Virus record (IMG/VR): IMGVR_UViG_3300020404_001964
Coordinates: 114,281-134,280 of that record
Length of the DNA stretch: 20,000 bases
Reading direction: 5' to 3' (one strand)
Origin: an uncultured virus (IMG/VR IMGVR_UViG_3300020404_001964)
Lineage: Duplodnaviria > Heunggongvirae > Uroviricota > Caudoviricetes
The translations under genes were made by a program, and so were the position numbers. The notes beneath the pieces were generated by a model. It worked only from the letters and a program-made list of their open reading frames with translations. It was not told where the DNA came from and ran no database searches. The number at the start of each line of letters is the position of its first letter. Position 1 is the stretch's first letter. Positions 1,532 through 20,000 of the stretch are shown piece after piece.

Positions 1532-1552
1532 CAATGGTAGAACGGAGCAAAA

Positions 1553-2164
1553 ATGAGCAAAATTAAAGAGAATAGTGGTGTATTGATACAAGGACATATT
1601 AAAATCCACGATCCAGAATCAGACAAGGTTTTTGTTGATAAACGCAACGCAATTCATTATGAAAATATGAGTGTTGCTTTAGCAGAAAGTGTTGCCAATC
1701 AAGGTCAAGGTTTCATAAATTCAATGTCTTTTGGTAATGGTGGAACAAGCGTTGACCCAACAGGAATTATTACATACCTTACTCCAAACAGTACAGGTAC
1801 AAATGCTACACTTTACAATCAAACTTACACAAAAATTGTTGATGATAGATCAGTATCAAACCTAGATCCACAAAGAAACAAAATAGAAACAAGACACATT
1901 AACGGAACAAACTATACAGATGTTGTTGTTACTTGTCTTTTAGATTATGGTGAACCAAATGGACAGGACGCTGTTGATGGCGCAAGTGCATCAGACAGTC
2001 TTTATGTATTTGATGAATTAGGATTAGTGAGTTATGCACCATCAGGCGCAGGCAAACTTTTAACACACGTAATTTTCCATCCTGTACAAAAAAGTTTAAA
2101 CAGATTAATACAGATTGATTACACAGTCAGAGTTCAAAGTTTGACAGGTTTTAACGAAGGGTAA
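1553..2164 (+). CDS. Phage protein, probably baseplate/tail-associated structural protein (203 aa)
   Basis: Clean ORF with a GGAG Shine-Dalgarno. It lies between structural genes and behind a late-promoter-like motif. No catalytic motif was recognised. Confidence 0.55.
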   Translation: MSKIKENSGVLIQGHIKIHDPESDKVFVDKRNAIHYENMSVALAESVANQGQGFINSMSFGNGGTSVDPTGIITYLTPNSTGTNATLYNQTYTKIVDDRSVSNLDPQRNKIETRHINGTNYTDVVVTCLLDYGEPNGQDAVDGASASDSLYVFDELGLVSYAPSGAGKLLTHVIFHPVQKSLNRLIQIDYTVRVQSLTGFNEG

Positions 2165-2167
2165 TAA

Positions 2168-6399: not shown

Positions 6400-6403
6400 G
6401 ACG

Positions 6404-6410
6404 ATAAATA
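6404..6410 (+). promoter_or_regulatory. Putative T4-like late promoter (ATAAATA)
   Basis: Intergenic ATAAATA, 18 nt upstream of ATG 6429. Confidence 0.55.
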
Positions 6411-6428
6411 TAAGAAACAAAGGGATTT

Positions 6429-7922: not shown

Positions 7923-8792
7923 ATGGCTTTAGTAACCGCAAACAGATTTAATACTCTTAGACAGCAAATAGATAATGTGTTAGGAAATGGTTCAGGTGAT
8001 ACTGGATATGGACAAACACTTATTACACAATCAGTTCAGGTAGGTGATTTAATCAATGCTACCAACATCAACAACGCATACGAAGATTTAAGAAAAGCAT
8101 ACAAACATCAAACAGGTGGAGATCCAGCGTCTAACTTAATTCAAATTGTTTCTCAAGGAGATTTGATTAAAGAAAATGATGGTGTTAATTACACAGGTTG
8201 GGATCAATACGAAGCATTGGCAACAACAGTTGGAACAAATAGATTAACAGTTGACTCTACACAACAATCAGTTGTACTTGCTAGTAGCAATCAAAGAGGT
8301 TCGTGGAATGGTACAATTACATTGAGAATCGAAGTTAACTTTACATCTGAAGATGCTAGAAGACATTATTTCAACGCAGGCGGTTATATTCAAATTTCAT
8401 CGAGTACAACAGACAGCAGTTCAAAAGGAAATTCCTGGAACAATGTAATGGGCGGAAATTTAAAATTTGGTGCTCACGGAACTACTCACACAGGAAACGG
8501 ATCAGTAACAGGATCTGGAATAGGAAACTACGAACTAGACGGAACTTCTCAGAGACTATTATCAAACTTTGATGCAGGTGGTGGAGCATATTCTGCCAAC
8601 GATTACTATGTGGATGTACAGCGAACAAGTGCCACACAAATTAGATTCACAATGAACTGGAGAGACCAAGCAGGCGGTAATCCAGATGAAAACATTTCGA
8701 ATTTAAGAAGTTACATTTACACAGCAACAGCAATCACAGATGTAATTGGTACTGCACCAGGTGTTGTACGTGGTTCTGGCGATAATTTCTAA
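7923..8792 (+). CDS. Putative virion structural protein (289 aa)
   Basis: Gly/Ser/Thr/Asn-rich, like the neighbouring fibre proteins, and last gene of the structural block. Contains the segments GDTGYGQ and ARRHYFNAGG. No enzyme motif was seen. Confidence 0.55.
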   Translation: MALVTANRFNTLRQQIDNVLGNGSGDTGYGQTLITQSVQVGDLINATNINNAYEDLRKAYKHQTGGDPASNLIQIVSQGDLIKENDGVNYTGWDQYEALATTVGTNRLTVDSTQQSVVLASSNQRGSWNGTITLRIEVNFTSEDARRHYFNAGGYIQISSSTTDSSSKGNSWNNVMGGNLKFGAHGTTHTGNGSVTGSGIGNYELDGTSQRLLSNFDAGGGAYSANDYYVDVQRTSATQIRFTMNWRDQAGGNPDENISNLRSYIYTATAITDVIGTAPGVVRGSGDNF

Positions 8793-8800
8793 TCTATAAT

Positions 8801-8829
8801 TTGACTTATATCCAAAAATCAAGTATAAT
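8801..8829 (+). promoter_or_regulatory. Sigma70-type promoter TTGACT-N17-TATAAT
   Basis: -35 TTGACT at 8801-8806 (5/6 consensus), a spacer of exactly 17 nt, and a perfect -10 TATAAT at 8824-8829. It sits in the largest intergenic gap of the window, directly ahead of the enzyme cluster. Confidence 0.8.
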
Positions 8830-8841
8830 ATTCTTAATATT

Positions 8842-9177
8842 ATGGATGAATCCTTATCAAAATCTTTGGAATACGCAGAGCGTCTAAGAACGTTCAATAA
8901 TCAATTAAAATTGTTGAAAGAGAAATGTCTTGAAAACAATATCTATTATACCGAAGGACATCAATTCACAATAGACCTTGCTCTTATAAATTACTGTCTC
9001 ACGTATATCAATATCAAAAAAACAAATGAAGCAATATTTCTAGATGATTACAAACAACCTGTCAAAATTACAGATATTAAATCCTTTCATAGCGACATTA
9101 CTGATTTGTATCAACGCAATCTAAATCAATACCTTGTGGAATACAATCAATTAGTGAAAGACAAAGGTGAGATTTAA
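8842..9177 (+). CDS. Hypothetical protein (111 aa), first gene of the enzyme operon
   Basis: Fills the space between the promoter and the first glycosyltransferase-like gene. Its 3' end carries the Shine-Dalgarno (AAGGTGA) for 9180. No motif was recognised. Confidence 0.65.
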   Translation: MDESLSKSLEYAERLRTFNNQLKLLKEKCLENNIYYTEGHQFTIDLALINYCLTYINIKKTNEAIFLDDYKQPVKITDIKSFHSDITDLYQRNLNQYLVEYNQLVKDKGEI

Positions 9178-9179
9178 TC

Positions 9180-9992
9180 ATGACCAAAGGGGTTTTGCTT
9201 TTTGCTCATAACAATAGCACTGTGGATTATGTCAAACAGGCTAATTTTTGTGCAGGTCAGATTAAAAAACATCTTGATTTGCCAGTGTGTTTGATTACAT
9301 CGGACAAATTCAACGAAGATCATAATAATTTTAATCACGTCATTGTAGTAGAAAAACCAAACACAGATCAAACAAAAAGATTTTACAATGTTACAAACAG
9401 TTATGAGGATACATGGAACAATACTTCAAGACCAGATGCTTATTCTTTAACTCCGTACGATGAAACCATTGTAATGGATACTGACTATATTGTGGCAAAC
9501 AGCAACCTTAACAAAGTGTTTGAAAGCAAAGAAGATTTTTTAATCAACTACAAAGCACAACACGTAGACTTTGAATCTAGATACACAGAAGAAATGAAAT
9601 ATGTTAGTGATACAGGTATTGAAATGTGCTGGGCAACTGTATTTTATTTTAAGAAAACTGAAAGAACTAGAATTTTGTTTGATTTAATCAATCATATCAA
9701 AAAAGAATGGCAATTTTATAGATTCAAATATCAAATTGAAAATACAATTTATAGAAATGATTTTGCTTTTGCCATAGCAATTCACATGATTAATGATTTT
9801 GCTAAAACAAGTTGGCCCAAGCAATTGCCTAGCAAGTTGTTTTATACAACGGACAAAGATAGTGTAGACTCTTATCTTGATAATAAATGGAATTTTACAT
9901 TAGAGCGAGGAGCAAAATGTCAGATTAAAGATATGAATATACACATAATGAACAAAATAGGATTGAATAAAATTATAGATCAATATGAATAG
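9180..9992 (+). CDS. Putative GT-A fold nucleotide-diphospho-sugar transferase (pair 1, gene A)
   Basis: N-terminal beta strand GVLLFA, then DY..QA..C...IKK, and a DxD motif in TPYDETIVMDTDY. Paralog of 9985. Confidence 0.6.
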   Translation: MTKGVLLFAHNNSTVDYVKQANFCAGQIKKHLDLPVCLITSDKFNEDHNNFNHVIVVEKPNTDQTKRFYNVTNSYEDTWNNTSRPDAYSLTPYDETIVMDTDYIVANSNLNKVFESKEDFLINYKAQHVDFESRYTEEMKYVSDTGIEMCWATVFYFKKTERTRILFDLINHIKKEWQFYRFKYQIENTIYRNDFAFAIAIHMINDFAKTSWPKQLPSKLFYTTDKDSVDSYLDNKWNFTLERGAKCQIKDMNIHIMNKIGLNKIIDQYE

Positions 9993-10806
9993 AGGTTTTA
10001 TATTATTTGTACAGCAGAATGAAACTTGTGATTATTTAAAACAAGCAGTTGCCTGTAGTTTAAGCATAAAGAAATTTATGCCCAAAGAACAAATATGTTT
10101 AATGACAGATATCATTGTTCCTGAAAAATACAAGAAACATTTTGATCATATTCAAGACATACCAGGAGATGATCTCGCAGTTGACAGCGATTGGAAAGTT
10201 AATAACAGATGTAAAATTTATAATAGCAGTCCATTTGATGAATCTATTGTGCTAGATGTGGATATGTTATTGTTAGAGAATATAGAGCATTGGTGGAAAC
10301 AATTAAGCAATTATGAATTGTTTTACACAAACAAAGTTAAAACCTATAGAGATGAATGGGTAACAAATGATTATTATAGAAAAGTATTTGTGGACAATGA
10401 CTTGCCAAATGTGTATTGTGGATTTCATTATTTTAAAAAATGTAAAAACAATGATGTGTTTTTTAAATTGTTAACAGATATTGTAGTGAACTATGAACAA
10501 TACAGCAAACGTTTTACAAAAAATCGCACTCAATCTTGGTGCAGTATGGATGTTGCCACAGCAATAGCAATAAAATTATTAGGTATTCAGCATAAAGTTT
10601 TCAGCACACAGTCTAATTTGACATTTACACATATGAAACCTAGAATACAAAACTATCAAAGTCAATTGAAATTATGGACGGAACAGATAGATTATAATCT
10701 TACACCACAAAATGAATTATTTGTGGGAAACTTTAAACAAAAAGGAATATTTCATTATGTTGAGGATAATTTTTTAACAGATAAGATGTTGGAGCAACTA
10801 CAATGA
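9985..10806 (+). CDS. Putative GT-A fold nucleotide-diphospho-sugar transferase (pair 1, gene B)
   Basis: GFILFV, DYLKQAVACSLSIKK, a DxD motif in SPFDESIVLDVDM, and late FTHMK and FHYV motifs reminiscent of GT8-like enzymes. Confidence 0.6.
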   Translation: MNRGFILFVQQNETCDYLKQAVACSLSIKKFMPKEQICLMTDIIVPEKYKKHFDHIQDIPGDDLAVDSDWKVNNRCKIYNSSPFDESIVLDVDMLLLENIEHWWKQLSNYELFYTNKVKTYRDEWVTNDYYRKVFVDNDLPNVYCGFHYFKKCKNNDVFFKLLTDIVVNYEQYSKRFTKNRTQSWCSMDVATAIAIKLLGIQHKVFSTQSNLTFTHMKPRIQNYQSQLKLWTEQIDYNLTPQNELFVGNFKQKGIFHYVEDNFLTDKMLEQLQ

Positions 10807-11399
10807 AGATAAGACCGCCACTAGAATTTGACGTAATACGTCCTAAAGTAAAACATTACTTTCATTTCGAGCCTGAAAGCGGAGATGTGTTTGGTTGTAG
10901 TGTACAGCAACAAGGACATAGTGTTGAAATTACAAAAGAACTAGCAGATGAAATACAAAAAGGTTCAAAACATTTAGCAGACTACAAGGTGACATTTAAA
11001 AATACAGGTTATGTTGTGGAATCACGTTATGTAGTAGACAACAAACTGCCAACTGATATACAAACAGATAATCACACCAACAAAGTAGTCTATGAAATAG
11101 TAAAAAATGATAAAGATTCTTGTATTAGATTTAAACTTGATATGAAAAATAAAAAATGGAACGTCAGTATAGATGATGATTTAAAAAACATAATACAAAC
11201 CACAGTAAAACAAGACAATTATGTGTTTAAATTTTTTACTACACCACAACACAATACAAGTGTTGCTGATTATTCTTTCAATATAGATTTAAAACAGTTA
11301 TGTGACACTGGTGATATTCAACTTCAACACAAATCTAATGAAACACCCAGATTGTTTTGTAGAAAAATTTACAATTATTCATATGAGGTAGCACAATGA
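10803..11399 (+). CDS. Hypothetical protein (198 aa)
   Basis: ATGA overlaps at both ends and a GGAG Shine-Dalgarno. No motif was recognised. Confidence 0.65.
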   Translation: MKIRPPLEFDVIRPKVKHYFHFEPESGDVFGCSVQQQGHSVEITKELADEIQKGSKHLADYKVTFKNTGYVVESRYVVDNKLPTDIQTDNHTNKVVYEIVKNDKDSCIRFKLDMKNKKWNVSIDDDLKNIIQTTVKQDNYVFKFFTTPQHNTSVADYSFNIDLKQLCDTGDIQLQHKSNETPRLFCRKIYNYSYEVAQ

Positions 11400-12304
11400 T
11401 TTTAAAAGTAGCAGACATGGATTTTATATTTTTAAGTGTTGATGAACCTAATGCTGAAAAGAATTTTGCTGATTTAAAAAGAAAAATCCCATGGGCAAAA
11501 CGTGTTCATGGTGTAAAAGGTTTTGACACAGCACATAAAAAGGCGGCAGAGGTATCTGAAACAGACAGATTTATCACAGTTGATGCCGACACCCAAGTAC
11601 ATAACAGTTTTTTAAATGTAATGGTTGATTTAAATTCATTAGGATTAGACAACACATATCAATTAAGTTGGTGTGGACATATTGATCTTAATGGATTAAG
11701 ATATGGTAACGGCAGTTTGAAATGTTGGACAAAAGATTTTGTAAAAAATATGAGAACTCATGAAAATCACGACGGTGGAGCAGATAGCAACAATAAAAAT
11801 GTAATAGAGTTTTGTCATTTTCCAAATTACTATCAATTCAACGATAATCATTCAATCAGTTACATAGATGGATCTGCCTATCAGGCTTGGAGAGCAGGAT
11901 TTAGAGAAGGAGTCAAAATGAGTTTGGATAAAAATGTTCGACAAGCACCAAAAGACTTATGGTGGCAAAACTATCAACGATTACTTGTATGGATGACAGT
12001 GGGTATAGATAATCCTTATGGCATTCATGCTATTCATGGAGCAAGAACAGGATGTTATCTTACAATGTGTACAGATTGGGATATCGGTCAAGCAAACGAA
12101 TATAGATTCTTTGAAAAGTATTGGAAAATTGAACTGCACAAAGACAAGACAACAGACTTTTATGAAGACTCTGTTACACTAGGAAAAAAGATTAATGCTG
12201 AACATGAAATTGATTTACCTATAAATCCGCTTACAGCAGAACAAAGTAAATTTTTTAAGAAAGTTTATTACAATACTCCAAGAATAATTAGGAAATCTAG
12301 ATAA
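11396..12304 (+). CDS. Putative glycosyltransferase-like protein with DxD motif (pair 2, gene A)
   Basis: DFIFLSVDEPNA...RVHGVKGFDTAHKKAA...FITVDAD gives a GT2-like N-terminal layout. GAGGT Shine-Dalgarno. Paralog of 12304. Confidence 0.55.
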   Translation: MILKVADMDFIFLSVDEPNAEKNFADLKRKIPWAKRVHGVKGFDTAHKKAAEVSETDRFITVDADTQVHNSFLNVMVDLNSLGLDNTYQLSWCGHIDLNGLRYGNGSLKCWTKDFVKNMRTHENHDGGADSNNKNVIEFCHFPNYYQFNDNHSISYIDGSAYQAWRAGFREGVKMSLDKNVRQAPKDLWWQNYQRLLVWMTVGIDNPYGIHAIHGARTGCYLTMCTDWDIGQANEYRFFEKYWKIELHKDKTTDFYEDSVTLGKKINAEHEIDLPINPLTAEQSKFFKKVYYNTPRIIRKSR

Positions 12305-12993
12305 TGTATGATATTGTGTTTATAAGTTACAACGAAGCATTGGCAGATCACAATTTTAAGTTGTTGTGTGACCGTTTTCCTATTGCTCAACGAGTAAAAG
12401 GAGTAAAAGGAATTCACAAAGCACATATAGAAGCGGCAGAAGTATCTATGACAAAAATGTTTTGGGTAGTAGACGCCGACGCTCAAATAGTAAAAGATTT
12501 TAATTTTGATTACAAAGTTGATCAATATAATTTAGATACAGTTCATGTATGGCAAAGTTTAAATCCTATAAATGATTTACAGTATGGATATGGGGGTGTC
12601 AAATTACTACCCAAACAATTAACTTTAAATATGGATACAACCACAACTGATATGACAACAAGCATTTCTAAAAATTTTAAAGCAATAAAGCAAGTTTCAA
12701 ACATCACAGCATTTAATTCAGATCCATTCAGTGCTTGGAAAAGTGCATTTAGAGAGTGTGTAAAATTAAGTTCTAAAGTTATTGACAGACAGCAAGACAA
12801 TGAAACAGAACAAAGATTGGATGTTTGGTGTAGCAAAGGTGCTGATAGACCGTATGGTGATTTCGCAATAGAAGGTGCGAAGTCCGGCAGAAAATTTGGC
12901 ACAGAACAAAAAGACAAATTGAATTACATTAATGATTTTGATTGGCTTAAAAAACATTTCGAGGAGACCTGCAGTGTCAGTACGTACTACTAG
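12304..12993 (+). CDS. Putative glycosyltransferase-like protein with DxD motif (pair 2, gene B)
   Basis: DIVFISYNE...RVKGVKGIHKAHIEAA...FWVVDAD...YGYGGVKL...AWKSAFRECVKL is colinear with 11396. TAATG overlap with the upstream gene. Confidence 0.55.
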   Translation: MYDIVFISYNEALADHNFKLLCDRFPIAQRVKGVKGIHKAHIEAAEVSMTKMFWVVDADAQIVKDFNFDYKVDQYNLDTVHVWQSLNPINDLQYGYGGVKLLPKQLTLNMDTTTTDMTTSISKNFKAIKQVSNITAFNSDPFSAWKSAFRECVKLSSKVIDRQQDNETEQRLDVWCSKGADRPYGDFAIEGAKSGRKFGTEQKDKLNYINDFDWLKKHFEETCSVSTYY

Positions 12994-14062
12994 AATACCA
13001 TTTGATAATATTATCAAGTTTGGGCAACAGACAATGATGCGTCATAAATTATTCAACGTAAGTTGGATATTAAGTAGATTCTGTAATTATGATTGTTCAT
13101 ATTGTTGGCCCTATGCTCATTCTAAAAAAGTAGATCATAGACCATTAGATGTTTATAAAAAAACAATGGACGAAATTAAAACTCAAGCAAGAAGTAATGG
13201 CTTTGATAGTTTTCATTTTAGTTTTAGTGGTGGAGAACCTACAGCATACAAAAGATTTTTACCTTTAATAGGTCATTATGCCTCAGATGAAAAAAGTAAC
13301 TATCAAAGTATTCATATGACAACAAATTGTTCACCAGGAATAAAATGGTGGAACACTTGGCTTACAGCAACAGAGTCGTTAGTACGTAGAAGTATAACCG
13401 CCAGTTATCATCATGAATTTGCCGATGAACAAACTTTTGGAGATAAACTTTTGATGTTGCAAGATGCCGGTGTTTATGTTACAATAAATCAAGTAATGGT
13501 TCCTGAATTGTTCAGCGAACTATATGATAGATGTAAAAGATTTAATGACAGAGGAATCAATGTAACACTGAAACCTCAAAGTAATGAATCAGCAAGTGAG
13601 ATTGTATCAGGTTACAATGACGAACAAGTAGAATTAATGAAAACAGGATTTGCTTTAAAGACAAATGACGGTTCAGAAGTAGGTCAAATTAGTCTTATGG
13701 ATCATAAAGATAATATGTATGAGATAGACCAGGCAGAAAGATTCAATGCTTTTGGCTTCAATAAATTTAAAGGTTGGAACTGTAATGCTGGATATCAAAG
13801 TTGTATTGTAAGAGAACCAGGTGGTGAAATAAAAAGAGCATACAGTTGTCATGATGAACCATTAGGAACGATAGATGGAGGATTTGAACTGTTTAAAAAC
13901 GCAAACAAGTGTATAACTCCAACTTGCGTGAGTTCTGCTGATAGTAAAATTCCTAAATCAAGAGGATTAGACAAATTAGAAGCAATAGAAAAGGATGAAA
14001 TAATATTAGAAATAAGTCGTAAGCAATCTAAATTATTTAAAAAGGAAAGAACAAATGTATAA
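12974..14062 (+). CDS. Radical SAM protein with C-terminal Cys-rich (SPASM/twitch-like) extension
   Basis: CxxxCxxC motif (CNYDCSYC, 13082-13105), FSGGEPT and MTTN. C-terminal WNCNAG...SC...C..PTC. The start was moved from ATG 12932 to the in-frame GTG 12974 because GAGGAG (12961-12966) lies 7 nt upstream. Confidence 0.85.
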   Translation: MSVRTTRIPFDNIIKFGQQTMMRHKLFNVSWILSRFCNYDCSYCWPYAHSKKVDHRPLDVYKKTMDEIKTQARSNGFDSFHFSFSGGEPTAYKRFLPLIGHYASDEKSNYQSIHMTTNCSPGIKWWNTWLTATESLVRRSITASYHHEFADEQTFGDKLLMLQDAGVYVTINQVMVPELFSELYDRCKRFNDRGINVTLKPQSNESASEIVSGYNDEQVELMKTGFALKTNDGSEVGQISLMDHKDNMYEIDQAERFNAFGFNKFKGWNCNAGYQSCIVREPGGEIKRAYSCHDEPLGTIDGGFELFKNANKCITPTCVSSADSKIPKSRGLDKLEAIEKDEIILEISRKQSKLFKKERTNV

Positions 14063-15041
14063 ACTTGAAGACATTAGAGATATCCATTTAGAAATCACAA
14101 GCAGATGTCAGGCAAAATGTCCTATGTGTCCTAGAAGAATTAATGGTGGTCCTTTGAATCCTTTTATACATTTGGATGATGTGTCATTAGAAACTTTTAA
14201 AAAATGGTTTCCTGTAGATTTTATTAAACAATTGAACAGTCTGTTTATGTGCGGAAATTTAGGAGATCCAATTGTAAGCAAAGATACATTGGAAATCTAT
14301 CAACACTTAAGAGCAACTAATCCTAATATAGGACTTGCCATGCACACAAATGGAAGTGCAAAAAATCAAGACTGGTGGAGGAAGTTAGCAAAAGAAAATG
14401 TAAAAGTTACTTTTGGATTAGATGGTTTGAAAGATACTAATCATCTTTATAGAATATCTACAGATTTTGATAAAATTATTTCCAATGCTAACGCATTTAT
14501 TGGAGCAGGTGGATTCGCAAAATGGCATATGCTGGTATTCAAACACAACGAACATCAAGTTGAAGAAGCAAGACAAATGTCCAAGGACTTAGGTTTTAGA
14601 GCATTTACTACAAAACATACGTCAAGATTCCACAATGGTGAGTTACAAGTAATAGATGAAAAAGGAAATCCTTTACACAAATTAGAGCCTACACAAAAAA
14701 GTGCTGATATGATATCATTAGTGAAAGAATCACAAAATGAAACGAAACCAACTATTATATGTAAAGCAGTTAAAAATCGCCAGTTATATGTTAGTGCTTG
14801 TGGTAATATATCTCCTTGTTGTTGGTTAGATATGGAATGGATTCCGCCTATGCAGGCAAGTAGAATAGATTACATGGACAGGATTGGAGAATTTCCTAAT
14901 TTAAATACAAGTAGTCTTAAGGAAATATTTGATGGAGGTTATTTTGAAAAAATTGAAAAAACTTGGGGACACACGCCTTTACAAGAATGTGGTAAGCAGT
15001 GTGGTTCTTTTGACAAACTAGGAGCACAATTTGAAAATTAA
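14055..15041 (+). CDS. Radical SAM protein with C-terminal SPASM/twitch-like domain (328 aa)
   Basis: CQAKCPMC motif, MCGNLGDP, HTNG and FGLDGL. C-terminal C...YVSACGNISPCC...SLKEI...ECGKQC. Confidence 0.85.
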   Translation: MYKLEDIRDIHLEITSRCQAKCPMCPRRINGGPLNPFIHLDDVSLETFKKWFPVDFIKQLNSLFMCGNLGDPIVSKDTLEIYQHLRATNPNIGLAMHTNGSAKNQDWWRKLAKENVKVTFGLDGLKDTNHLYRISTDFDKIISNANAFIGAGGFAKWHMLVFKHNEHQVEEARQMSKDLGFRAFTTKHTSRFHNGELQVIDEKGNPLHKLEPTQKSADMISLVKESQNETKPTIICKAVKNRQLYVSACGNISPCCWLDMEWIPPMQASRIDYMDRIGEFPNLNTSSLKEIFDGGYFEKIEKTWGHTPLQECGKQCGSFDKLGAQFEN

Positions 15042-15636
15042 TATTCAAGATGTACTGTACTGGATGGATACAATCAGGCAATCTGATGACAAGTATCGTA
15101 CATTGGAAAGTTTCTGGAAAGGACAGATCAACAGTAAAGTTTGGTTAATAACTCATTTACAAAAGTTTCAACAACAAATGCCATATAATATTTTATTGTG
15201 TGGTGGTTGGAATGGAGTATTGTCTACATTATTGTTCAATAGTGAACTAGATATCACACGTGTTGTTAGTATGGACATAGATAGCAAATGCGAATCTATT
15301 GCTTATTCTATGAATAAAGAGTATGAAATGGATGGCAGGTTTAAAGCAATCACGTCAGATATGCTGTTATACAACGATTATGGCAAACATAATTTAATTA
15401 TTAATACTGTATGTGAACACATGACAGTTGATCAATATCAACAATGGTTAGAAAAATTACCAAATAACAAAAGGATTGTAGTACAAAGTAATGACTTTTT
15501 TGAATGTGAAGAACATATTAATTGTCAAAAGTCATTGAAAGAATTTGAAAAAAATTGTGGTTTGACTATTGAAGAATCAGTAGAACTTACAACAGACAAA
15601 TACAAAAGATTTATGATTATAGGATTTAAAAAATGA
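15031..15636 (+). CDS. Putative class I SAM-dependent methyltransferase (201 aa)
   Basis: Motif-I-like ILLCGGWNG, acidic strand end SMDID, and later TSDM and LIINTVCEHM. The TTG start is supported by GGAG at 15021-15024. Confidence 0.6.
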   Translation: MKINIQDVLYWMDTIRQSDDKYRTLESFWKGQINSKVWLITHLQKFQQQMPYNILLCGGWNGVLSTLLFNSELDITRVVSMDIDSKCESIAYSMNKEYEMDGRFKAITSDMLLYNDYGKHNLIINTVCEHMTVDQYQQWLEKLPNNKRIVVQSNDFFECEEHINCQKSLKEFEKNCGLTIEESVELTTDKYKRFMIIGFKK

Positions 15637-16247
15637 AAGCACCAGTAAATTTTTCAGATAGAGTGGCTTATAAAATTACAATGGGTTTGCGTTGGATAGC
15701 AGATACATTTTTTAAAAAACGTTATGGACACAGAGCAGTTGTATTAGAAACTGTTGCAGGTGTGCCTGGCATGGTTGCAGGTATGTGGAACCATTTAAGA
15801 AGTTTACGTAAAATGAAACCAGATGATCGAGGTTGGATTAAAACATTATTAGCAGAAGCAGAAAATGAACGTATGCACCTTATGATTTTCATTCGCATAG
15901 CAAAACCTAATTGGTTTGAACGTTGGGCAATTATTACTGCACAATTTATATTCTGGCATTTTTATATGTTCTTATATATATTTTTTCCGCAGTGTGCTCA
16001 CAGAATGGTAGCATACTTTGAGGAACAAGCCTGCATAAGTTATACAGAATATTTGAAAGAAATAGATGAAGGAAGAATAGAAAATATTAAAGCACCTAAG
16101 ATAGCAATAGATTATTATAAACTTCCTAAAGACGCAACTTTACGTGATGTTGTAATCGCAGTGCGAAAAGACGAAGAAGGGCATAGAGATGTGAACCACG
16201 ATATGGCAGACCAAATAAGAAGGAATAGACATGGACTTATCAACTAA
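15633..16247 (+). CDS. aox: Alternative oxidase (ubiquinol oxidase, di-iron carboxylate), bacterial-type, 204 aa
   Basis: All AOX blocks are present: RAVVLETVAGVPGMV, HLRSLR, GWIKTLLAEAENERMHL, HRMVAYFEEQACISYT, AIDYYKLP, LRDVVIAVRKDEEGHRDVNH. The iron-ligand pattern E...ExxH...E...ExxH is intact. There is no N-terminal transit peptide. Confidence 0.95.
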   Translation: MKAPVNFSDRVAYKITMGLRWIADTFFKKRYGHRAVVLETVAGVPGMVAGMWNHLRSLRKMKPDDRGWIKTLLAEAENERMHLMIFIRIAKPNWFERWAIITAQFIFWHFYMFLYIFFPQCAHRMVAYFEEQACISYTEYLKEIDEGRIENIKAPKIAIDYYKLPKDATLRDVVIAVRKDEEGHRDVNHDMADQIRRNRHGLIN

Positions 16248-16890
16248 AATTTTTAATAAGTTTAAAGACGGCACATTGCCGTGGCTTGAATTAGATATTA
16301 ATTTTGGTCCTTATATTGACCCTAATGAATTTAATAAAGTAGAAAAATACTATGTGGATCATAGAGAAAATGAATCACACATTGGATGGAGCAGTTGTTG
16401 TTTACATGGATTAGGCATTGACAAGACACAGGTGGCAAAAGAATATGGTTATACCGATGAACTAAATGCTCCATACAGTTGGACTAAACTTGCGGAAATA
16501 ACGCCAGCAGTAAAAATGTTTTGGGACAAATTTCCTGCTGAAAGATACAGTAGAGTAAGATTTATGAAATTAAAAAGTTATGGAAAAATAGATTGGCATA
16601 ATGACCATCCTGGTCACGAACTTCCAGAAGATTTATGTGATTATCTTATTCCAATAAATGTTGCTGTTCAACATCCTGCTCTATGTTATATGGAAGTGAA
16701 AGATCATGGATTAGTTCCTTTTGGACATGGCAAAGTATTTTTAATTAATATATTGAAAGATCATCAAGTGGTAAACAATTCTAATGTTGATAGAATACAC
16801 ATGATTGCTCAAGCACACATAGGCAATAAAAGAGAACAATTTAACGAACTATTAGATAGGAGTATTAAAAAATATGGCATTTCAATATGA
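16231..16890 (+). CDS. Putative 2OG-Fe(II) oxygenase, aspartyl/asparaginyl beta-hydroxylase-like (219 aa)
   Basis: RVRFMKL...IDWHND provides HxD, followed by IPIN. A distal His and a 2OG-binding Arg occur in DHQVVNNSNVDRIHMI. Confidence 0.7.
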   Translation: MDLSTKIFNKFKDGTLPWLELDINFGPYIDPNEFNKVEKYYVDHRENESHIGWSSCCLHGLGIDKTQVAKEYGYTDELNAPYSWTKLAEITPAVKMFWDKFPAERYSRVRFMKLKSYGKIDWHNDHPGHELPEDLCDYLIPINVAVQHPALCYMEVKDHGLVPFGHGKVFLINILKDHQVVNNSNVDRIHMIAQAHIGNKREQFNELLDRSIKKYGISI

Positions 16891-18259
16891 TGCACAGAAC
16901 AAAAAACACAATATAGTCTTTATTCTTGAAAGTAATTTTCACGCAATAAAAAATAATTCTGCTAAAGAATTAATACAAAATATTGCTGAATATCAGATTG
17001 GGAATTTAAACACTATGGGATATGATGTTTTAGTATCTATATCTGAAGATACAACATTGAGTAAGATAGCAGACAAATATGATTATGCTGTTGTGTTTAC
17101 TCCTGATACAGAGTTTCAAGGTGAATCATTCTTTAAACATCTACAGAAATTAATTAAAGAAGACTTTTATATAGCAGGACACATACTTGATAGGAAAGAG
17201 GGTTATTATGAACTGCATGAACAATGCTATGTAATTAATCTTAAAAAGCATAAAGAATATGAATTACCTGAAATAGGTGAATTAAAAAGAAATTCAGAAC
17301 ATTTTACAACTGAACCAATAAGAAGTGATGAAAACTTTCACGATGATTATACACCACTATGGGTTAAGCCAGGAAATGAAAGCAAAACATATAAACACAA
17401 ATGGCATGGATGGAATATTATCAGAGTTGCTTTAGACAACAAAGAAAAAATAATAGTGTTTGATGAAGATTTAAGAATTAGTAAAAAATGTTATTATGCT
17501 GTACATGAAACAGACTTTAATGAAAACAGCAAACAAATTTTTAAAAAATACAATCAAAGTGCTAATAGATTGTTTTATCCAATTAACACAGAAGAACTTC
17601 AGTCTGTACAAACAGGAATTTTAAAACAATTAATCACACCTGCTAGTGGCTTCAATTGGTTAAAGTATTTAGATAAACATGGATATGACCAAGAAACTGA
17701 AGTTGTATTTTATGATTACAATCCTAATGCTTTATATTATATGGAGCAAACAATTAAAGAATTTGATGGCGGTGATTATCACAAGTTTTTAAAAACAAAA
17801 AATAGACATAAAACACCAGACTGGTTAAATTCTAAATTAGAAATTGCTGAATACTTTGAAACTGTAAGCAGGTTATGGCACATTAAAGATAAGGTAAAAT
17901 TTAAATTTGTAGAGTGTGATCTGTTAAATGAATTTACTATCAAGCCTATAAACGATAGAAATGTTGTATTCAACATTAGTAATATTTTCGCATATGAGCC
18001 AACTGTGCCTTTTGTTCCAACAAAACAAAGAGTGTTTAAACAAAATCAATTGCTTAAACTACTTAAAGAAAAATATAACAAAATTCAATTAATTGTATCA
18101 CAACACGCCTGGACTGGATTTGTAAACTATGACATAGACGCAGGTCCTGTAAAAGACTTTTATGAAGTTGATATTGAAACATTAAAAGCACCAATGTGGC
18201 GTTTTGGTAAAGAGTGGAGAAATCCTAAAGACCCATGGGAGGAAGATGAAGAAGAATAA
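16874..18259 (+). CDS. Hypothetical protein, probably a two-domain enzyme (461 aa)
   Basis: Long ORF overlapping both neighbours, with an AGGAG Shine-Dalgarno. The N-half has IAGHILD...YYELHEQCYVINL. The C-half has Rossmann-like VVFYDYNPNAL...FVECDLL...FNISNIF. Confidence 0.6.
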   Translation: MAFQYDAQNKKHNIVFILESNFHAIKNNSAKELIQNIAEYQIGNLNTMGYDVLVSISEDTTLSKIADKYDYAVVFTPDTEFQGESFFKHLQKLIKEDFYIAGHILDRKEGYYELHEQCYVINLKKHKEYELPEIGELKRNSEHFTTEPIRSDENFHDDYTPLWVKPGNESKTYKHKWHGWNIIRVALDNKEKIIVFDEDLRISKKCYYAVHETDFNENSKQIFKKYNQSANRLFYPINTEELQSVQTGILKQLITPASGFNWLKYLDKHGYDQETEVVFYDYNPNALYYMEQTIKEFDGGDYHKFLKTKNRHKTPDWLNSKLEIAEYFETVSRLWHIKDKVKFKFVECDLLNEFTIKPINDRNVVFNISNIFAYEPTVPFVPTKQRVFKQNQLLKLLKEKYNKIQLIVSQHAWTGFVNYDIDAGPVKDFYEVDIETLKAPMWRFGKEWRNPKDPWEEDEEE

Positions 18260-19520
18260 AAGCAGTTGTACTTTTTGTATGCATCCTTTTACAGGGTTGG
18301 CTACTAGAGAAGATGGAGCAATAAAAGTATGTTGCCGTAGTCTTCCTATTGCTAATATAAAAGATATGAGTTTGGAAGAAGCATGGAACTCAGATGCTAT
18401 GAAAGAAGTAAGACGGCAAGTATTAAATGACGAAAGACCTGATGTGTGTCAACCTTGTTTTGATTTAGAAGATCAAGGAGTACAAAGTCTAAGACAAAGA
18501 CACATCACAGATTCTTCACCAGAATCAAGAAGCAATTTGTATCCAAATGCGTTGGATAGTTTACAAAACGATTACACAATGCCTTTTGAATTACCCACAA
18601 TGGAGATTAAAATAAACAATCTTTGTAATCTTAAATGTAGAATGTGTAACCCTTTAGACAGTACACAATGGAAAGATTGGGGCAGTATTGTATCTCACTA
18701 TGAAAAAGAAGGCAATTATCTTGTAGACGCAGTAAAAGGTCTAGGATTAGAAAGAGCACCATATGTAGGTTTGTTTGAAGACAAAATGCATTTCTGGGAA
18801 AACTTAGAAAAACTTTTACCTTATTTCAGACGTGTTGAATTCGCAGGAGGAGAACCACTTATGGATCCTTCACACTATAAAATTTTAGATTTACTTTCTA
18901 AAAACGGTAAAAATATAGAAATAAAATATGCTACAAACGGCACAACACTAGGTATAAAAGGTGGCAGAACAGTTCATGAGTATTGGCCCAAGTTTAAAAG
19001 TGTTGCTGTGAATGTAAGTATAGATGGTTTACACGACACATATGAATATATCAGAGGTAATGGCAAGTTTTCTGAAGTTGAATACAACATAAAAGAAATG
19101 AAAAAGATACCAACAGTAAGTCGTATTGTAGGAGCATTCACAGTACAAGCCAACAACATATTACAAATAGACAAAGTAATTGATTACTTTCTAAAGGATA
19201 TGCAGATTGTATTTTACAGTCATAGAGTAAATTATCCAAGAGCCTTATCGGCACAAGTTTTACCTGAAGATTTGAAACAAGCAGTGGTTGTAAAATTAGA
19301 AGCAATGAAAAGTAAGGTTAAGGATTATGAAATTGTTAAAAAACATCCTGTGCTAGAAAAGATTACACTTCAACAAATTCAAGATAACATTAATTTTTTA
19401 CAAGCAAGAGATCTACATGAACATTGGAACGATTGTATAGATTTTAATAGAAAACTTGATATGTCAAGAAACCAAGGACCATTCGAAAAAATTAATCCGG
19501 AGTTTGCTGATTATGTTTAG
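18246..19520 (+). CDS. Radical SAM protein with N-terminal SPASM/twitch-like domain
   Basis: N-terminal FCMHPF...DGAIKVCC...SLEEAWNS...CQPC. Core motif CNLKCRMC, then FAGGEPLM, YATNGT and VSIDG. ATG 18246 (GGAGG just upstream) is preferred over TTG 18204. Confidence 0.85.
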   Translation: MKKNKSSCTFCMHPFTGLATREDGAIKVCCRSLPIANIKDMSLEEAWNSDAMKEVRRQVLNDERPDVCQPCFDLEDQGVQSLRQRHITDSSPESRSNLYPNALDSLQNDYTMPFELPTMEIKINNLCNLKCRMCNPLDSTQWKDWGSIVSHYEKEGNYLVDAVKGLGLERAPYVGLFEDKMHFWENLEKLLPYFRRVEFAGGEPLMDPSHYKILDLLSKNGKNIEIKYATNGTTLGIKGGRTVHEYWPKFKSVAVNVSIDGLHDTYEYIRGNGKFSEVEYNIKEMKKIPTVSRIVGAFTVQANNILQIDKVIDYFLKDMQIVFYSHRVNYPRALSAQVLPEDLKQAVVVKLEAMKSKVKDYEIVKKHPVLEKITLQQIQDNINFLQARDLHEHWNDCIDFNRKLDMSRNQGPFEKINPEFADYV

Positions 19521-20000
19521 AGTTGAACATCTATACAAACACGTACAAGAAAGTGTAAAAGTAGAATGGAATCTTGGCAAAAGATGTAATTATGATTGCT
19601 CTTACTGTCCTGCAGAAATACATGACAATACCAGTAAACACACAGATATTAAAATTTTAAAAAATGCTGTTGATTCTTTAGTGGCATCAGTGCCAGATTT
19701 AAGAACCAAAGTCAGAATTAGTTTTACTGGAGGTGAACCTTGTGTACATCCAAAATTTTTACAACTGTTAGAATACGCAAGACCAAAAGTAAGTTGGCTT
19801 AATGTTACAACAAATGGAACAAGAACTGGCAAATATTATACACATCTATTAGACAATTTGGTAGACCATTTGGTATTCAGTTTACACTTTGAATACGATT
19901 ACCAAAAGGTGTTGAATTCAATTTTAAGGGCCGCACAAGGGTCGAAAAACAAAAATATACTTGTACACGTAATGATGCTTCCAGGACGTTTATACGACGT
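19513..20000 (+). CDS. Radical SAM protein, N-terminal part (3'-truncated by the window; not in the ORF track)
   Basis: Manual translation from ATG 19513 gives MFRVEHLYKHVQESVKVEWNLGKRCNYDCSYCPAEIHD...RISFTGGEPCVHP...VTTNGTR...FSLHFE..., open to the window end. GGAG lies at 19499-19502. Confidence 0.9.
   Translation, partial: MFRVEHLYKHVQESVKVEWNLGKRCNYDCSYCPAEIHDNTSKHTDIKILKNAVDSLVASVPDLRTKVRISFTGGEPCVHPKFLQLLEYARPKVSWLNVTTNGTRTGKYYTHLLDNLVDHLVFSLHFEYDYQKVLNSILRAAQGSKNKNILVHVMMLPGRLYD

What the first reader, a model, noticed from the sequence alone, without database searches (positions are those of the whole stretch)
15633..16247. A true alternative oxidase (AOX), not PTOX, in a phage genome
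Seen: intact AOX signatures LETVAGVPGMV, EAENERMHL, FEEQA..SY and DEEGHRDVNH. Known: the di-iron quinol oxidase familiar from cyanophages is PTOX, which has ARVPYF-type and NE.HHL-type motifs; respiratory AOX occurs in mitochondria and some, often marine, proteobacteria. Inference: an auxiliary metabolic gene that oxidises the host quinol pool without proton pumping. It could keep electron flow and NAD+ regeneration running, or limit ROS, during infection. It suggests a ubiquinone-using heterotrophic host.
Basis: partly seen in the sequence, partly recalled or inferred. Interest (0 to 1): 0.8.

Follow-up and report, generated by a model that had tools for sequence, protein, structure and literature searches.

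The report
Respiratory bypass oxidase in ocean phage
A large uncultured ocean phage carries an intact gene for an alternative oxidase, a one-protein enzyme that passes electrons from the host's membrane quinol to oxygen; the gene is real and well preserved, but it is an optional add-on that related phages lack, and it has been listed, though never studied, in other marine phages.

Summary
Window 15633-16247 (+) is an intact 204-aa ORF that contains all four quoted motifs. It is a true AOX, not a PTOX:
- Pfam AOX scores 270 bits, against 39-44 bits for cyanophage PTOX.
- It matches trypanosome AOX at E 4e-49; an AF2 model superposes on it at TM 0.92.
- All six iron ligands and the catalytic Tyr are present.
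- PTOX sits on a long separate branch in the tree.

The contig is viral. It is a 134-kb fragment of a jumbo myovirus with T4-type core genes, whose capsid and terminase are closest to 285-470-kb phages of Proteobacteria.

The gene is an optional ~0.6-kb cassette. The nearest relatives (flanks 91-100% identical) lack it at a precise junction. More distant relatives carry it at the same site, 94-97% identical, with dN/dS of about 0.05.

AOX occurs on more than 170 IMG/VR stretches, in two virus-dominated clades nested among proteobacterial AOX.

The most likely function is a non-pumping, haem-free quinol:O2 bypass that keeps the host quinone pool oxidised during infection. This is inferred, not shown.

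Novelty is limited. A 2020 supplementary table lists AOX for pelagimyophages, and this scan has reported phage AOX before on other DNA.

The parts
15633..16247 (+). AOX gene, 204 aa. Di-iron ligands are E39, E79, H82, E130, E181 and H184; the catalytic Tyr is Y137.
   Evidence: Pfam AOX scores 270.5 bits. The match to TAO is E 3.9e-49. The ligand columns are invariant in 149 of 149 aligned rows. The AF2 model has pLDDT 92.8 and superposes on TAO at TM 0.92-0.93.
15637..16231 (+). Segment present in the window but absent from the nearest AOX-less relatives (L155, L156). This is the ~595-nt AOX cassette.
   Evidence: In DNA alignment A1, L155 and L156 read o201 stop TAA directly followed by TGGAC of the downstream gene. 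The window has ATGA, then the AOX body, then TGGAC. The boundaries are uncertain by a few bases.
15031..15636 (+). Upstream gene o201 (201 aa, no family match). Its TGA stop overlaps the AOX ATG (ATGA). An AGGA lies at 15621-15624, 8 nt before the AOX start.
   Evidence: The sequence was read. There was no Pfam, PHROG or NCBIfam hit. The gene is conserved beside the insertion site in 65 of 78 related loci.
16231..16890 (+). Downstream gene, an Asp/Asn beta-hydroxylase-like 2OG oxygenase (219 aa). Its ATG lies inside the last 17 nt of AOX. An AGGA lies at 16221-16224, 6 nt before it.
   Evidence: Pfam PF05118 gives E 5.5e-6. The sequence was read. In AOX-less relatives this gene follows o201 directly.
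7923..20000 (+). Conserved same-strand island downstream of the tail-fibre genes. It holds 4-5 radical-SAM/SPASM ORFs, paralogous unknown ORFs and the AspH-like gene. AOX is inserted into this island.
   Evidence: Pfam and NCBIfam hits are. Gene order is conserved across L152-L229. The rSAM/SPASM gene at 14055-15041 has at least 604 matching IMG/VR stretches.
2..7907 (+). Virion genes upstream: the C-terminus of a 4890-aa ORF, a tail-collar fibre protein and a fibre with a Peptidase_G2 autoproteolytic domain. These show the viral context within the window.
   Evidence: Pfam Collar gives E 1.9e-20 and Peptidase_G2 E 4.8e-6. PHROG tail-fibre families match.

Best explanation
The ORF encodes a functional, bacterial-type alternative oxidase. 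This is a monotopic, haem- and copper-free di-iron membrane enzyme that oxidises ubiquinol and reduces O2 to water without pumping protons. It is carried as an auxiliary metabolic gene by a marine jumbo myovirus of a non-photosynthetic host, probably a proteobacterium.

The gene sits as a self-contained ~0.6-kb cassette inside a long same-strand operon. Its start overlaps the upstream stop codon, and its 3' end overlaps the start of the next gene.

During infection the single protein would insert into the host membrane and provide a quinol-to-oxygen route that the phage controls. That route is independent of the host's cytochrome oxidases and of back-pressure from the proton gradient. It would keep the quinone pool oxidised, so that NADH dehydrogenase and other quinone-linked dehydrogenases keep turning over and the chain makes less ROS.

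Shown: family identity, intact catalytic residues, fold, viral location, purifying selection, and presence/absence polymorphism. Inferred: enzyme activity, timing of expression, the benefit to the phage, and the host.
For: Identity:
- Pfam AOX 270.5 bits; TAO E 3.9e-49.
- By my hand mapping of the alignment, E39, E79, H82, E130, E181, H184 and Y137 align with the TAO ligands and Tyr. These columns are invariant in 149 of 149 rows.
- AF2 model pLDDT 92.8. The top 14 Foldseek PDB hits are all TAO, with TM 0.90-0.93 and rmsd 1.3-1.9 A.
- Identity is 51-60% to named eukaryotic AOX from Cyanophora, Galdieria, Acacia, Panagrolaimus and Actinostola.

Not PTOX.

Viral:
- Hallmark genes lie on the same 134-kb record.
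- The capsid is 69% identical to Vibrio phage 2.275.O and 67% to PA5oct; the terminase is 54% identical to PA5oct.
- CheckV completeness is 37%.
- Three IMG/VR contigs are 100% identical across the region, and about 20 more are syntenic.
- Contigs of DNA run X7 bridge both AOX junctions with 0 mismatches.

Selection: against 7 relatives, AOX has dN 0.032-0.056, dS 0.57-0.98 and dN/dS 0.043-0.080. Flanking genes in the same pairs have dN 0.14-0.30.

Spread: 97 and 81 IMG/VR stretches encode relatives. 32 representatives, including the query, form one clade with SH-aLRT 97.

Photosystem genes: AOX-bearing C48C1 (a complete genome) and the own contig have no photosystem reaction-centre gene. PTOX-bearing Syn9 has two.

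Expression hint: two metatranscriptome libraries hold exact pieces of the gene.
Against: - No activity, expression timing or host was measured.
- The RNA-library contigs may be carried-over DNA. The tool itself says 'not shown transcribed'.
- The gene is dispensable. 58 of 65 decidable related loci lack it, including the two nearest backbones.
- Strict plant-calibrated AOX motifs (ERMHLMT, LEEEA; passages of the PASV preprint) are missed at two positions: the phage protein reads ERMHLMI and FEEQA.
- The contig is a fragment that ends 3.7 kb after the gene. Photosystem or other host-indicating genes could lie in the missing ~60%.
- No promoter signal was found.
Confidence: 0.8

Rival explanations
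1. AOX serves mainly as an oxygen scavenger. It would lower intracellular O2 to protect the oxygen-labile [4Fe-4S] radical-SAM enzymes encoded around it in the same operon.
For: The window has 4-5 radical-SAM/SPASM ORFs on the same strand within 4 kb on either side. Outside the query's own lineage, 14 of 60 AOX loci again have homologues of these radical-SAM genes nearby (my count from the table).
Against: The nearest relatives keep the whole radical-SAM island without AOX; 58 of 65 decidable loci lack it. The 14 loci all belong to phages that share the same island, so the association is inherited, not independent. Other AOX phages place the gene in unrelated contexts: clamp loader-RegA-Hsp20, DnaJ-Pdf-ClpB, or PstS-CsgFG. 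C48C1 has it beside a tRNA and the clamp loader.
Confidence: 0.1
2. The gene is a cellular gene on a misassembled or misclassified contig, not a phage gene.
For: The closest named 'bacterial' hits are at 75-77% identity, in MAGs labelled Verrucomicrobia and Neomarinimicrobiota and in a Rhodobacteraceae single-cell genome. The contig is linear and incomplete.
Against: The same contig carries capsid, portal, terminase, sheath and baseplate genes. The tail-fibre-to-AOX gene order recurs on many independent IMG/VR contigs and in Logan contigs of another study. The 335-kb 'Neomarinimicrobiota' contig itself has a gp23 capsid gene, so it is a misbinned phage. The TMED56 contig carries the same radical-SAM/AspH island.
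Confidence: 0.02
3. The gene is a recently captured passenger without function for the phage, on its way to being lost.
For: It shows presence/absence polymorphism between near-identical backbones. Only 7 of 65 decidable island loci carry it.
Against: dN/dS is 0.04-0.08 across lineages with dS 0.6-1.0. All catalytic residues are intact in 97 of 97 viral rows. The virus-dominated clades are deep. The overlaps with both neighbouring genes are tidy.
Confidence: 0.05
4. The enzyme is kept for resistance to respiratory poisons or limitation. It would let infected cells respire when the host's haem-copper or bd oxidases are inhibited (NO, sulfide, cyanide) or cannot be made (iron, copper or haem shortage, or host shut-off). 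This differs from general redox balancing.
For: AOX is insensitive to such inhibitors by family knowledge. For Vibrio fischeri and NO I saw only the citing sentence and the reference entry in PMC12801897. The enzyme needs two iron atoms and no haem or copper. The phage also carries a haem-pathway gene, ALAD.
Against: Nothing in the sequence separates this from the general bypass reading. No regulator or sensor gene lies beside it.
Confidence: 0.25

Closest known systems
Trypanosoma brucei alternative oxidase (TAO; PDB 3vv9, 3vva, 9kun)
   Same: It shares the four-helix-bundle di-iron fold (TM 0.92-0.93, rmsd 1.3-1.7 A, 44-45% identity). The six ligands and the Tyr align. AOX-type motifs are present.
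   Different: The phage protein starts at about TAO residue 78. It therefore lacks the mitochondrial presequence and the N-terminal extension, as bacterial AOX do. It is encoded by a phage.
Proteobacterial alternative oxidases (e.g. Polynucleobacter, Cellvibrionales; the characterised Novosphingobium aromaticivorans and Vibrio fischeri enzymes are named from recall and from a reference list seen)
   Same: The length is the same (~200 aa) and there is no N-terminal extension. Identity is 50-71%. The viral clades nest among them.
   Different: The query belongs to a clade of 32 representatives that are all on viral or phage-like contigs (SH-aLRT 97). In a sample of 401 Pseudomonadota genomes, only 15 had AOX, and none exceeded 64% identity.
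Cyanophage plastoquinol terminal oxidase (PTOX; Syn9, P-SSM4, S-RSM4)
   Same: It belongs to the same di-iron carboxylate superfamily with the same seven invariant residues. It is also a phage auxiliary gene that drains a quinol pool to oxygen.
   Different: PTOX scores only 39-44 bits on the Pfam AOX model, against 270. Its motif contexts differ: LEEIARAPYF, NETEHL and DELHHSKEL. It sits on a long separate branch. It is found in phages that carry psbA/psbD.
'Alternative oxidase AOX' listed for pelagimyophages (Zaragoza-Solas et al. 2020, PMC7029224, Table S5)
   Same: This is a true AOX catalogued as an AMG of T4-like marine phages of a heterotroph, with PtoX listed only for cyanomyophages (supplement read). 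Several AOX loci found here have the T4-like clamp loader-RegA-Hsp20 context.
   Different: It is a single table row. The main text never mentions it (0 occurrences of AOX). The present phage is a jumbo phage with PA5oct / Vibrio 2.275.O-like structural genes, not a ~150-kb pelagimyophage.
Phage C48C1 (OQ984149, Kyanoviridae, 156 kb) ORF WJE87901
   Same: It is the only record of 50,697 in the phage collection with an AOX match at E<=1e-5: 54.8% identity and 233 bits on Pfam AOX. It has no photosystem gene.
   Different: It belongs to the second viral AOX clade. It lies between a tRNA-Thr gene and the clamp loader, and is annotated only as a hypothetical protein.

Membership tests
Alternative oxidase (AOX, PF01786, ubiquinol oxidase type) | Six di-iron ligands in the pattern E ... 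ExxH ... E ... ExxH | tested here: met
   E39, E79/H82, E130 and E181/H184 align with the TAO ligands in the alignment (TAO residue numbers are recalled). They are invariant in 149 of 149 rows and in 38 of 38 rows.
Alternative oxidase (AOX, PF01786, ubiquinol oxidase type) | Conserved tyrosine next to the di-iron site (the TAO Y220 equivalent) | tested here: met
   Y137 is invariant in 149 of 149 rows.
Alternative oxidase (AOX, PF01786, ubiquinol oxidase type) | Four-helix-bundle fold with additional membrane-facing helices, as in TAO | tested here: met
   The AF2 model has pLDDT 92.8 and six long helices. The top 14 Foldseek PDB hits are all TAO at TM 0.90-0.93. The next hits, bacterioferritins, come only at E~0.09.
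Alternative oxidase (AOX, PF01786, ubiquinol oxidase type) | Groups with AOX and not with PTOX in a phylogeny | tested here: met
   In the IQ-TREE LG+C20 tree of 85 rows, the 4 PTOX rows sit on one side of a branch with support 99. The query sits among proteobacterial and eukaryotic AOX. A FastTree of 192 rows gives the same result.
Alternative oxidase (AOX, PF01786, ubiquinol oxidase type) | Strict plant-derived diagnostic motifs ERMHLMT and LEEEA (as quoted in the PASV preprint) | tested here: not met
   The phage protein reads ERMHLMI and FEEQA, so 10 of 12 positions match. The rule was calibrated on plant sequences. Polynucleobacter AOX also has F for L, so this does not exclude a bacterial-type AOX.
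Alternative oxidase (AOX, PF01786, ubiquinol oxidase type) | Cyanide-insensitive, SHAM-sensitive quinol:O2 oxidoreductase activity | not testable with these tools
   This needs expression and respirometry.
Plastoquinol terminal oxidase (PTOX) | PTOX-type motif contexts and profile match | tested here: not met
   PHROG phrog_4235 (PTOX) matches only at E 5.8e-4, 20.8 bits. The motif contexts differ from Syn9, P-SSM4 and S-N03 PTOX at all four iron-binding segments.
Viral auxiliary metabolic gene | Lies inside a bona fide viral genome, reproducibly | tested here: met
   Viral hallmark genes are on the same contig. The same junctions appear in independent IMG/VR contigs and in Logan contigs of run X7. 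Caveat: downstream, the contig ends 3.7 kb after the gene. Relatives L067 and L078 continue with further radical-SAM genes.
Viral auxiliary metabolic gene | Maintained by purifying selection in the virus | tested here: met
   dN/dS is 0.043-0.080 in 7 of 7 pairwise comparisons.
Viral auxiliary metabolic gene | Expressed during infection | tested here: inconclusive
   Exact fragments of the gene occur in contigs of two metatranscriptome libraries from one study (X18, X19). DNA carry-over is not excluded, and contigs give no strand or expression level.

The most novel reading that the evidence does not exclude
AOX is a long-lived, virus-resident gene lineage: the heterotroph-phage counterpart of cyanophage PTOX. 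It would move as a ready-to-express ~0.6-kb cassette between co-infecting marine phages, both jumbo and T4-like. It would stay polymorphic within phage populations because its benefit depends on conditions. It would occasionally have been handed back to bacteria; Cellvibrionales AOX shares a clade with the second viral group, and a Rhodobacteraceae single-cell copy nests inside the query's viral clade. The nearest outgroup is a marine AOX fused to an Old-Yellow-Enzyme flavoreductase. That fusion would mean the lineage works as a compact NAD(P)H-to-oxygen drain.
Probability: 0.35. Interest if true: 0.7.

Novelty: new member of a known kind. Interest (0 to 1): 0.5.

Why it matters
Cyanophage photosynthesis genes, PTOX among them, are the textbook case of viruses rewiring host energy metabolism. 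Much less is known for the phages of the heterotrophic bacteria that dominate ocean respiration.

A true respiratory alternative oxidase is spread over at least two virus-dominated clades and well over a hundred viral contigs. It is strongly conserved, yet switched on and off by a precise cassette insertion. This suggests that phages of heterotrophs also take direct control of the last step of the host electron chain.

The gene is a single small one with a simple assay, and natural AOX+ and AOX- sister phages exist. The question of what a respiratory bypass is worth to a virus is therefore directly testable. If active, the enzyme would uncouple oxygen consumption from energy conservation in infected cells, which bears on estimates of marine respiration and growth efficiency.

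Tried and rejected
- **Whole-window DNA search.** Megablast of the whole window against 50,697 phage records found no match.
- **NCBIfam.** No model matches the AOX.
- **S-N03 PTOX as a PTOX query.** It matched only itself, so I used Syn9, P-SSM4 and S-RSM4 instead.
- **Promoters and terminators.** There were 71 sigma-70-like sites against 63.2 +/- 8.7 in shuffles, and 3 terminator-like sites against 3.8 +/- 1.7. The T4 late-promoter word TATAAATA had 0 matches against 2.7 expected. No transcription signal can be claimed.
- **tRNA genes as a host clue.** None were found in the 134 kb.
- **Organism names for near-identical AOX proteins.** The cluster look-up returned only 'ubiquinol oxidase' and Tara gene labels, no organism.
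- **AOX-OYE fusion in viral contigs.** All 81 matches covered only the AOX part, so the fusion is not shown to be viral.
- **Host identity.** It was not resolved. The MAG labels Verrucomicrobia and Neomarinimicrobiota were rejected as host evidence because those contigs are phage-like.
- **More recent ancestry of AOX than its flanks.** The lower dS of AOX (0.57-0.98) against o201 and AspH (1.2-2.2) suggests this. I do not claim it as shown, because flank dS is near saturation and the twitch radical-SAM gene shows equally low dS.
- **RNA-library coverage.** Parts of the stretch without cover in the RNA libraries are not evidence of silence.
- **Steps not run.** I ran no dimer prediction and no AU test.
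- **Literature.** Seven full-text searches found no paper that analyses a phage AOX.
  - PMC12801897 names an 'AOX' ORF180 in cyanophage S-SCSM2R (passages only). I could not check whether it is AOX or PTOX.
  - The prasinovirus 'alternative oxidase' falls with PTOX according to its authors (passages).
Full report
**1. Observation**

Window 15633-16247 (+) is a single open frame with an ATG start and a TAA stop, encoding 204 aa. Pfam PF01786 (AOX) matches residues 3-193 at E 1.4e-80 and 270.5 bits, against a cut-off of 22.7.

**2. AOX, not PTOX**

PF01786 covers both enzymes, so I compared them directly.
- Profile scores: on the same Pfam model the PTOX genes of cyanophages Syn9, P-SSM4 and S-RSM4 score 44.3, 40.0 and 38.9 bits. 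The atypical S-N03 'PTOX' scores 64.5 bits. Phage C48C1's homologue scores 233.5 bits.
- PHROG: the PTOX family phrog_4235 matches the window protein only at E 5.8e-4.
- Solved structures: phmmer against PDB sequences finds three trypanosome AOX sequences at E 2-4e-49 over residues 2-198. After those come only bacterioferritins at E>0.5.
- Catalytic residues: from the alignment I mapped E39, E79, H82, E130, E181, H184 and Y137 onto the TAO di-iron ligands and active-site Tyr (the TAO residue numbers are recalled). All seven columns are invariant in 149 of 149 aligned rows: 77 first viral set, 20 second viral set, 24 bacterial, 5 named eukaryotic, 19 unnamed and 4 PTOX. These residues define the superfamily.
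- Motif contexts: the surrounding residues separate the two enzymes. AOX rows read LETVAGVPGMV / NERMHLM / (Y/F)(L/F)EE(E/Q)A..SYT / DE..HRDVNH. PTOX rows read LEEIARAPYF / NETEHLE / EVEIHA..TYA / DELHHSKEL.
- Fold: an AlphaFold2 model built on a 38-sequence alignment has mean pLDDT 92.8 and pTM 0.88. Its 14 best Foldseek PDB matches are all TAO chains, with TM 0.90-0.93 normalised to the query, rmsd 1.3-1.9 A and 44-45% identity.
- Named relatives: the nearest 50%-cluster representatives include AOX of Cyanophora, Galdieria, Acacia, a nematode and a sea anemone at 51-60% identity, and a Pseudomonadota MAG 'alternative oxidase' at 57%.
- One deviation: the strict plant motifs ERMHLMT and LEEEA, quoted in the PASV preprint (passages), are matched at 10 of 12 positions. 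The phage protein reads ERMHLMI and FEEQA. A Polynucleobacter AOX also has F for L, so I read this as a limit of a plant-calibrated rule.

**3. Viral context**

The window is the last 20 kb of a 134,280-bp IMG/VR record with a CheckV completeness of 37%. I called 107 ORFs with a simple caller. A Pfam scan of 87 of them plus the window's 20 finds:
- structural genes: gp23 major capsid (E 5e-99), gp20 portal (E 9e-113), T4-type large terminase, prohead protease, tail sheath, gp15, gp25 and gp9/10;
- replication and repair genes: UvsX-like RecA, gp32 and gp46/47-like nuclease;
- giant ORFs of 4890, 2344, 1899 and 1717 aa.

The capsid protein is closest to Vibrio phage 2.275.O (349 kb, 69%) and to the PA5oct group (287 kb, 67%). 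Sinorhizobium phage Phosso (469 kb) and the Serratia BF / Yersinia fHe-Yen9-04 group (~355 kb) follow. The terminase gives the same ranking. This matches a jumbo myovirus of roughly 360 kb. No photosystem reaction-centre gene was found in the fragment.

**4. Not an assembly artefact**

- Three IMG/VR contigs are 100% identical over the whole region, and about twenty more carry the same gene order from the tail fibre to AOX.
- The 2.8-kb stretch around AOX is held, at half or more of its sampled words, by 17 DNA runs. The 20 runs that hold all or part of it come from 10 studies, and 5 runs may be sources of this DNA.
- Contigs of run X7 bridge o201|AOX (15133-15746) and AOX|AspH (15717-16890) with no mismatch.

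**5. An optional cassette**

AOX lies in a long same-strand island that follows the tail-fibre genes. The island contains four to five radical-SAM/SPASM ORFs, an Asp/Asn-hydroxylase-like gene and several unknown ORFs, some of them paralogous.

The radical-SAM/SPASM gene two positions upstream has at least 604 matching stretches in IMG/VR. AOX has 97. I examined 78 of the best 80 loci (L152-L229):
- 7 carry AOX between o201 and the AspH-like gene;
- 58 do not;
- 13 are too short to tell.

The two backbones nearest to the window are L155 and L156, with flanking proteins 91-100% identical. Both lack AOX. There the o201 stop (TAA) runs straight into the AspH start. In the window the o201 stop is TGA, overlapped by the AOX ATG (ATGA). 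About 595 nt follow, and the last 17 nt of AOX are the first codons of the AspH-like gene read in another frame. An AGGA lies 8 nt before the AOX ATG, and another, inside AOX, lies 6 nt before the AspH ATG.

A second backbone type (L061, L067, L069, L074, L078 and others) has flanks only 60-80% identical to the window's. It carries AOX at the same site with 94-97% identity, and it has its own AOX-less siblings, L193 and L196.

**6. Selection**

Nei-Gojobori estimates between the window and seven AOX-bearing relatives give, for AOX, dN 0.032-0.056, dS 0.57-0.98 and dN/dS 0.043-0.080. In the same pairs the flanking genes o229, rSAM376, rSAM/SPASM328, o201, AspH219 and o461 have dN 0.14-0.30, dS 1.0-3.1 and dN/dS 0.09-0.22. 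AOX is therefore under stronger constraint than its neighbours. Its lower dS hints at exchange between backbones. However, flank dS is near saturation, and the twitch radical-SAM gene shows equally low dS in the pairs with L061 and L070, so I leave this as a suggestion.

**7. Phylogeny and spread**

A FastTree of 192 rows used 45 of the 116 complete locus ORFs, after collapsing those at 93% identity or more, plus the query, all representatives of at least 190 aa, and 4 PTOX. An IQ-TREE LG+C20 'quick' tree of 85 rows was also built. Both agree on the following.
- The 4 PTOX rows lie beyond a long branch (support 99).
- The query falls in a clade of 32 representatives (SH-aLRT 97). All are on IMG/VR contigs except two contigs filed under MAGs.
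- One of those two, a 335-kb 'Neomarinimicrobiota' contig, also carries a gp23 capsid gene. The other, a 15-kb 'Verrucomicrobia TMED56' contig, carries the same radical-SAM/AspH island. Both are phage DNA in my reading.

The sister of this clade is the AOX domain of a 584-aa marine protein that fuses AOX to an Oxidored_FMN (Old Yellow Enzyme) domain (support 86 and 81). Around these lie Polynucleobacter AOX (66-71% identity to the query) and other proteobacterial AOX. In a sample of 401 Pseudomonadota genomes, 15 had a match, at 50-64% identity.

A scan with the fusion protein brought 81 further IMG/VR stretches, of which 80 loci were kept. 49 of those gave usable ORFs, at 58-66% identity to the query. 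None shared a 100-residue identical stretch with the first set. Their 19 representatives, with phage C48C1, form a second group (support 99-100). That group also contains the three Cellvibrionales/Haliea rows, but branching inside it is unresolved. One representative, L247, sits beside Polynucleobacter.

A Rhodobacteraceae single-cell contig looks cellular (GC 48%, RTX and dehydrogenase neighbours). It holds an AOX split over three frames. The central 150-aa piece nests inside the query's viral clade next to L117 and L126 (SH-aLRT 98).

Caveats: both viral sets were gathered by pattern scans seeded on the query or the fusion. The trees are unrooted apart from the distant PTOX outgroup. No AU test was run.

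**8. Other contexts**

I scanned 150 ORFs around AOX in 11 diverse loci of the first set.
- L105 and L112 have the T4-like order sliding clamp, clamp loader, RegA, Hsp20, AOX.
- L068 has DnaJ, AOX, peptide deformylase, ClpB.
- L085 has ferritin, PstS, AOX, CsgF/CsgG.
- L087, L093 and L114 have a DUF1127 ORF upstream of AOX.
- C48C1 places AOX between tRNA-Thr and the clamp loader.

So AOX has entered several kinds of marine myoviruses. C48C1 is a complete genome and has no psbA/psbD, while the PTOX carrier Syn9 has both.

**9. Expression hint**

Contigs of two metatranscriptome libraries from one study hold exact pieces of the gene. X18 covers 15717-15857 and 16049-16199 with 0 differences. 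X19 covers 15855-16052 with 1 difference. They also hold pieces of the neighbouring genes. The tool warns that DNA can be present in such libraries, so this is a hint only.

**10. Mechanism**

Shown:
- an intact AOX-type enzyme gene, conserved under strong constraint;
- embedded with overlapping start and stop in a phage operon;
- polymorphic among close relatives.

From established knowledge of the family: AOX is a monotopic membrane di-iron protein that oxidises ubiquinol and reduces O2 to water. It does not translocate protons, and it is insensitive to cyanide and NO.

Inferred: after synthesis in the infected cell it gives the phage a terminal oxidase that needs no haem, copper or assembly factors. 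It would keep the quinone pool oxidised so that NADH and other quinone-linked dehydrogenases continue to run and ROS stay low. This would hold even if host oxidases decay, are inhibited, or are limited by the proton gradient.

The sister fusion to an NAD(P)H-flavin reductase fits a role in burning reducing equivalents. An oxygen-scavenging role for the neighbouring radical-SAM enzymes is less likely, because the island exists without AOX in most relatives and AOX exists without the island in other phages.

**11. What is known**

Seven full-text searches found no study of a phage AOX.
- Table S5 of Zaragoza-Solas et al. 2020 (PMC7029224; supplement read) lists 'Alternative oxidase AOX' among AMGs marked for pelagimyophages only, and PtoX among those for cyanomyophages only. 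The main text has no occurrence of 'AOX'.
- PMC12801897 names an 'AOX' in cyanophage S-SCSM2R (passages). I could not check its type.
- Prasinovirus 'alternative oxidases' group with PTOX according to their authors (passages).

This scan has met phage AOX before on other DNA.
- Note e1-5653113 gave the lead to the 2020 table, which I verified.
- Note e1-6243950 called the position an optional insertion, which my own synteny and alignment tests confirm.
- Notes e1-5337755 and e1-5341338 describe AOX beside other respiratory genes in other phages. I did not test those.

**12. Verdict**

This is a real, intact, selected AOX-type oxidase in a marine jumbo phage. The novelty is moderate: it is a new, better-characterised member of a viral AMG class that is catalogued but unstudied.

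Noticed in passing
P0123 (584 aa; metagenome protein, sister to the viral AOX clade): This protein is a fusion of an AOX domain (residues 2-195, 261 bits) with an Oxidored_FMN / Old-Yellow-Enzyme domain (234-559, 249 bits). Its cluster has 28 members, sources label it 'N-ethylmaleimide reductase', and it comes from Tara and other marine samples on contigs up to 363 kb. It could form a one-polypeptide NAD(P)H-to-O2 route. The fusion was not found as such in IMG/VR.
   Followed up: partly
window 7923-20000 and loci L152-L229: This is a widely conserved phage island of unknown function, lying after the tail fibres. It holds paralog pairs (o270/o273, o302/o229), two radical-SAM/SPASM genes, an AspH-like 2OG oxygenase, a 461-aa unknown ORF, and a 'twitch domain' radical-SAM protein (NF033640, 327 bits). 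At least 604 IMG/VR stretches match one of its genes.
   Followed up: partly
G000:C1:101136-115808 (window 2-1528 is its end); also C1:32682-39716, 51490-57189, 57225-62378: These are giant ORFs of 4890, 2344, 1899 and 1717 aa. The largest has FG-GAP and DUF2460-like stretches. Two carry chitin-binding-type CBM_5_12 repeats.
   Followed up: no
G000:C1:75047-75847 (-): A delta-aminolevulinic acid dehydratase (HemB/ALAD, E 4e-39), a haem-pathway gene, lies just downstream of the major capsid gene on the same strand. Carbamoyltransferase, two 2OG-Fe(II) oxygenases and sugar-nucleotide enzymes lie elsewhere on the contig.
   Followed up: no
L011 / G002:C57 (335-kb contig filed under a 'Candidatus Neomarinimicrobiota' MAG): The contig carries both a gp23 capsid gene (C57:237745-238689) and an AOX (C57:11481-12053). 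It is most likely a near-complete jumbo phage genome binned into a bacterial MAG. A second contig, C77, has an identically scoring capsid gene.
   Followed up: partly
L326 (G003:C69, Rhodobacteraceae single-cell genome, 8.9 kb): The contig looks cellular (GC 48%; RTX-repeat proteins, Zn-dehydrogenase, DUF2306). Its AOX is split over three reading frames, and the central piece nests inside the viral AOX clade next to L117 and L126. This could be a virus-to-cell transfer, a decaying copy, or sequencing errors.
   Followed up: partly
L136/L141 (Synechococcus phage S-N03, MT162466: 61481-62104): The gene annotated as plastoquinol terminal oxidase is atypical. It scores 64.5 bits on Pfam AOX, has an insertion in the second iron motif, and has no relative in any other record of the phage collection at E<=1e-3.
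   Followed up: partly
L001 10022-10573 (Phage C48C1, OQ984149, WJE87901): A clear AOX (233 bits on Pfam AOX) is annotated only as 'hypothetical protein' in a complete Kyanoviridae genome that has no psbA/psbD.
   Followed up: yes
G000:C1:18097-18531 (-) and C1:87241-87672 (-): A TnsA-like endonuclease ORF (E 7e-20) and a SegE-type GIY-YIG homing endonuclease (E 6.5e-36) lie in the phage genome. SegE-like genes also lie near AOX in L085 and L114.
   Followed up: no
run X7 (coded 'organism A'): One DNA run whose record names an organism rather than 'marine metagenome' holds the whole stretch at a contig word depth of about 265. The name is coded and I did not pursue it. It might be an enrichment or culture that contains the phage.
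   Followed up: no
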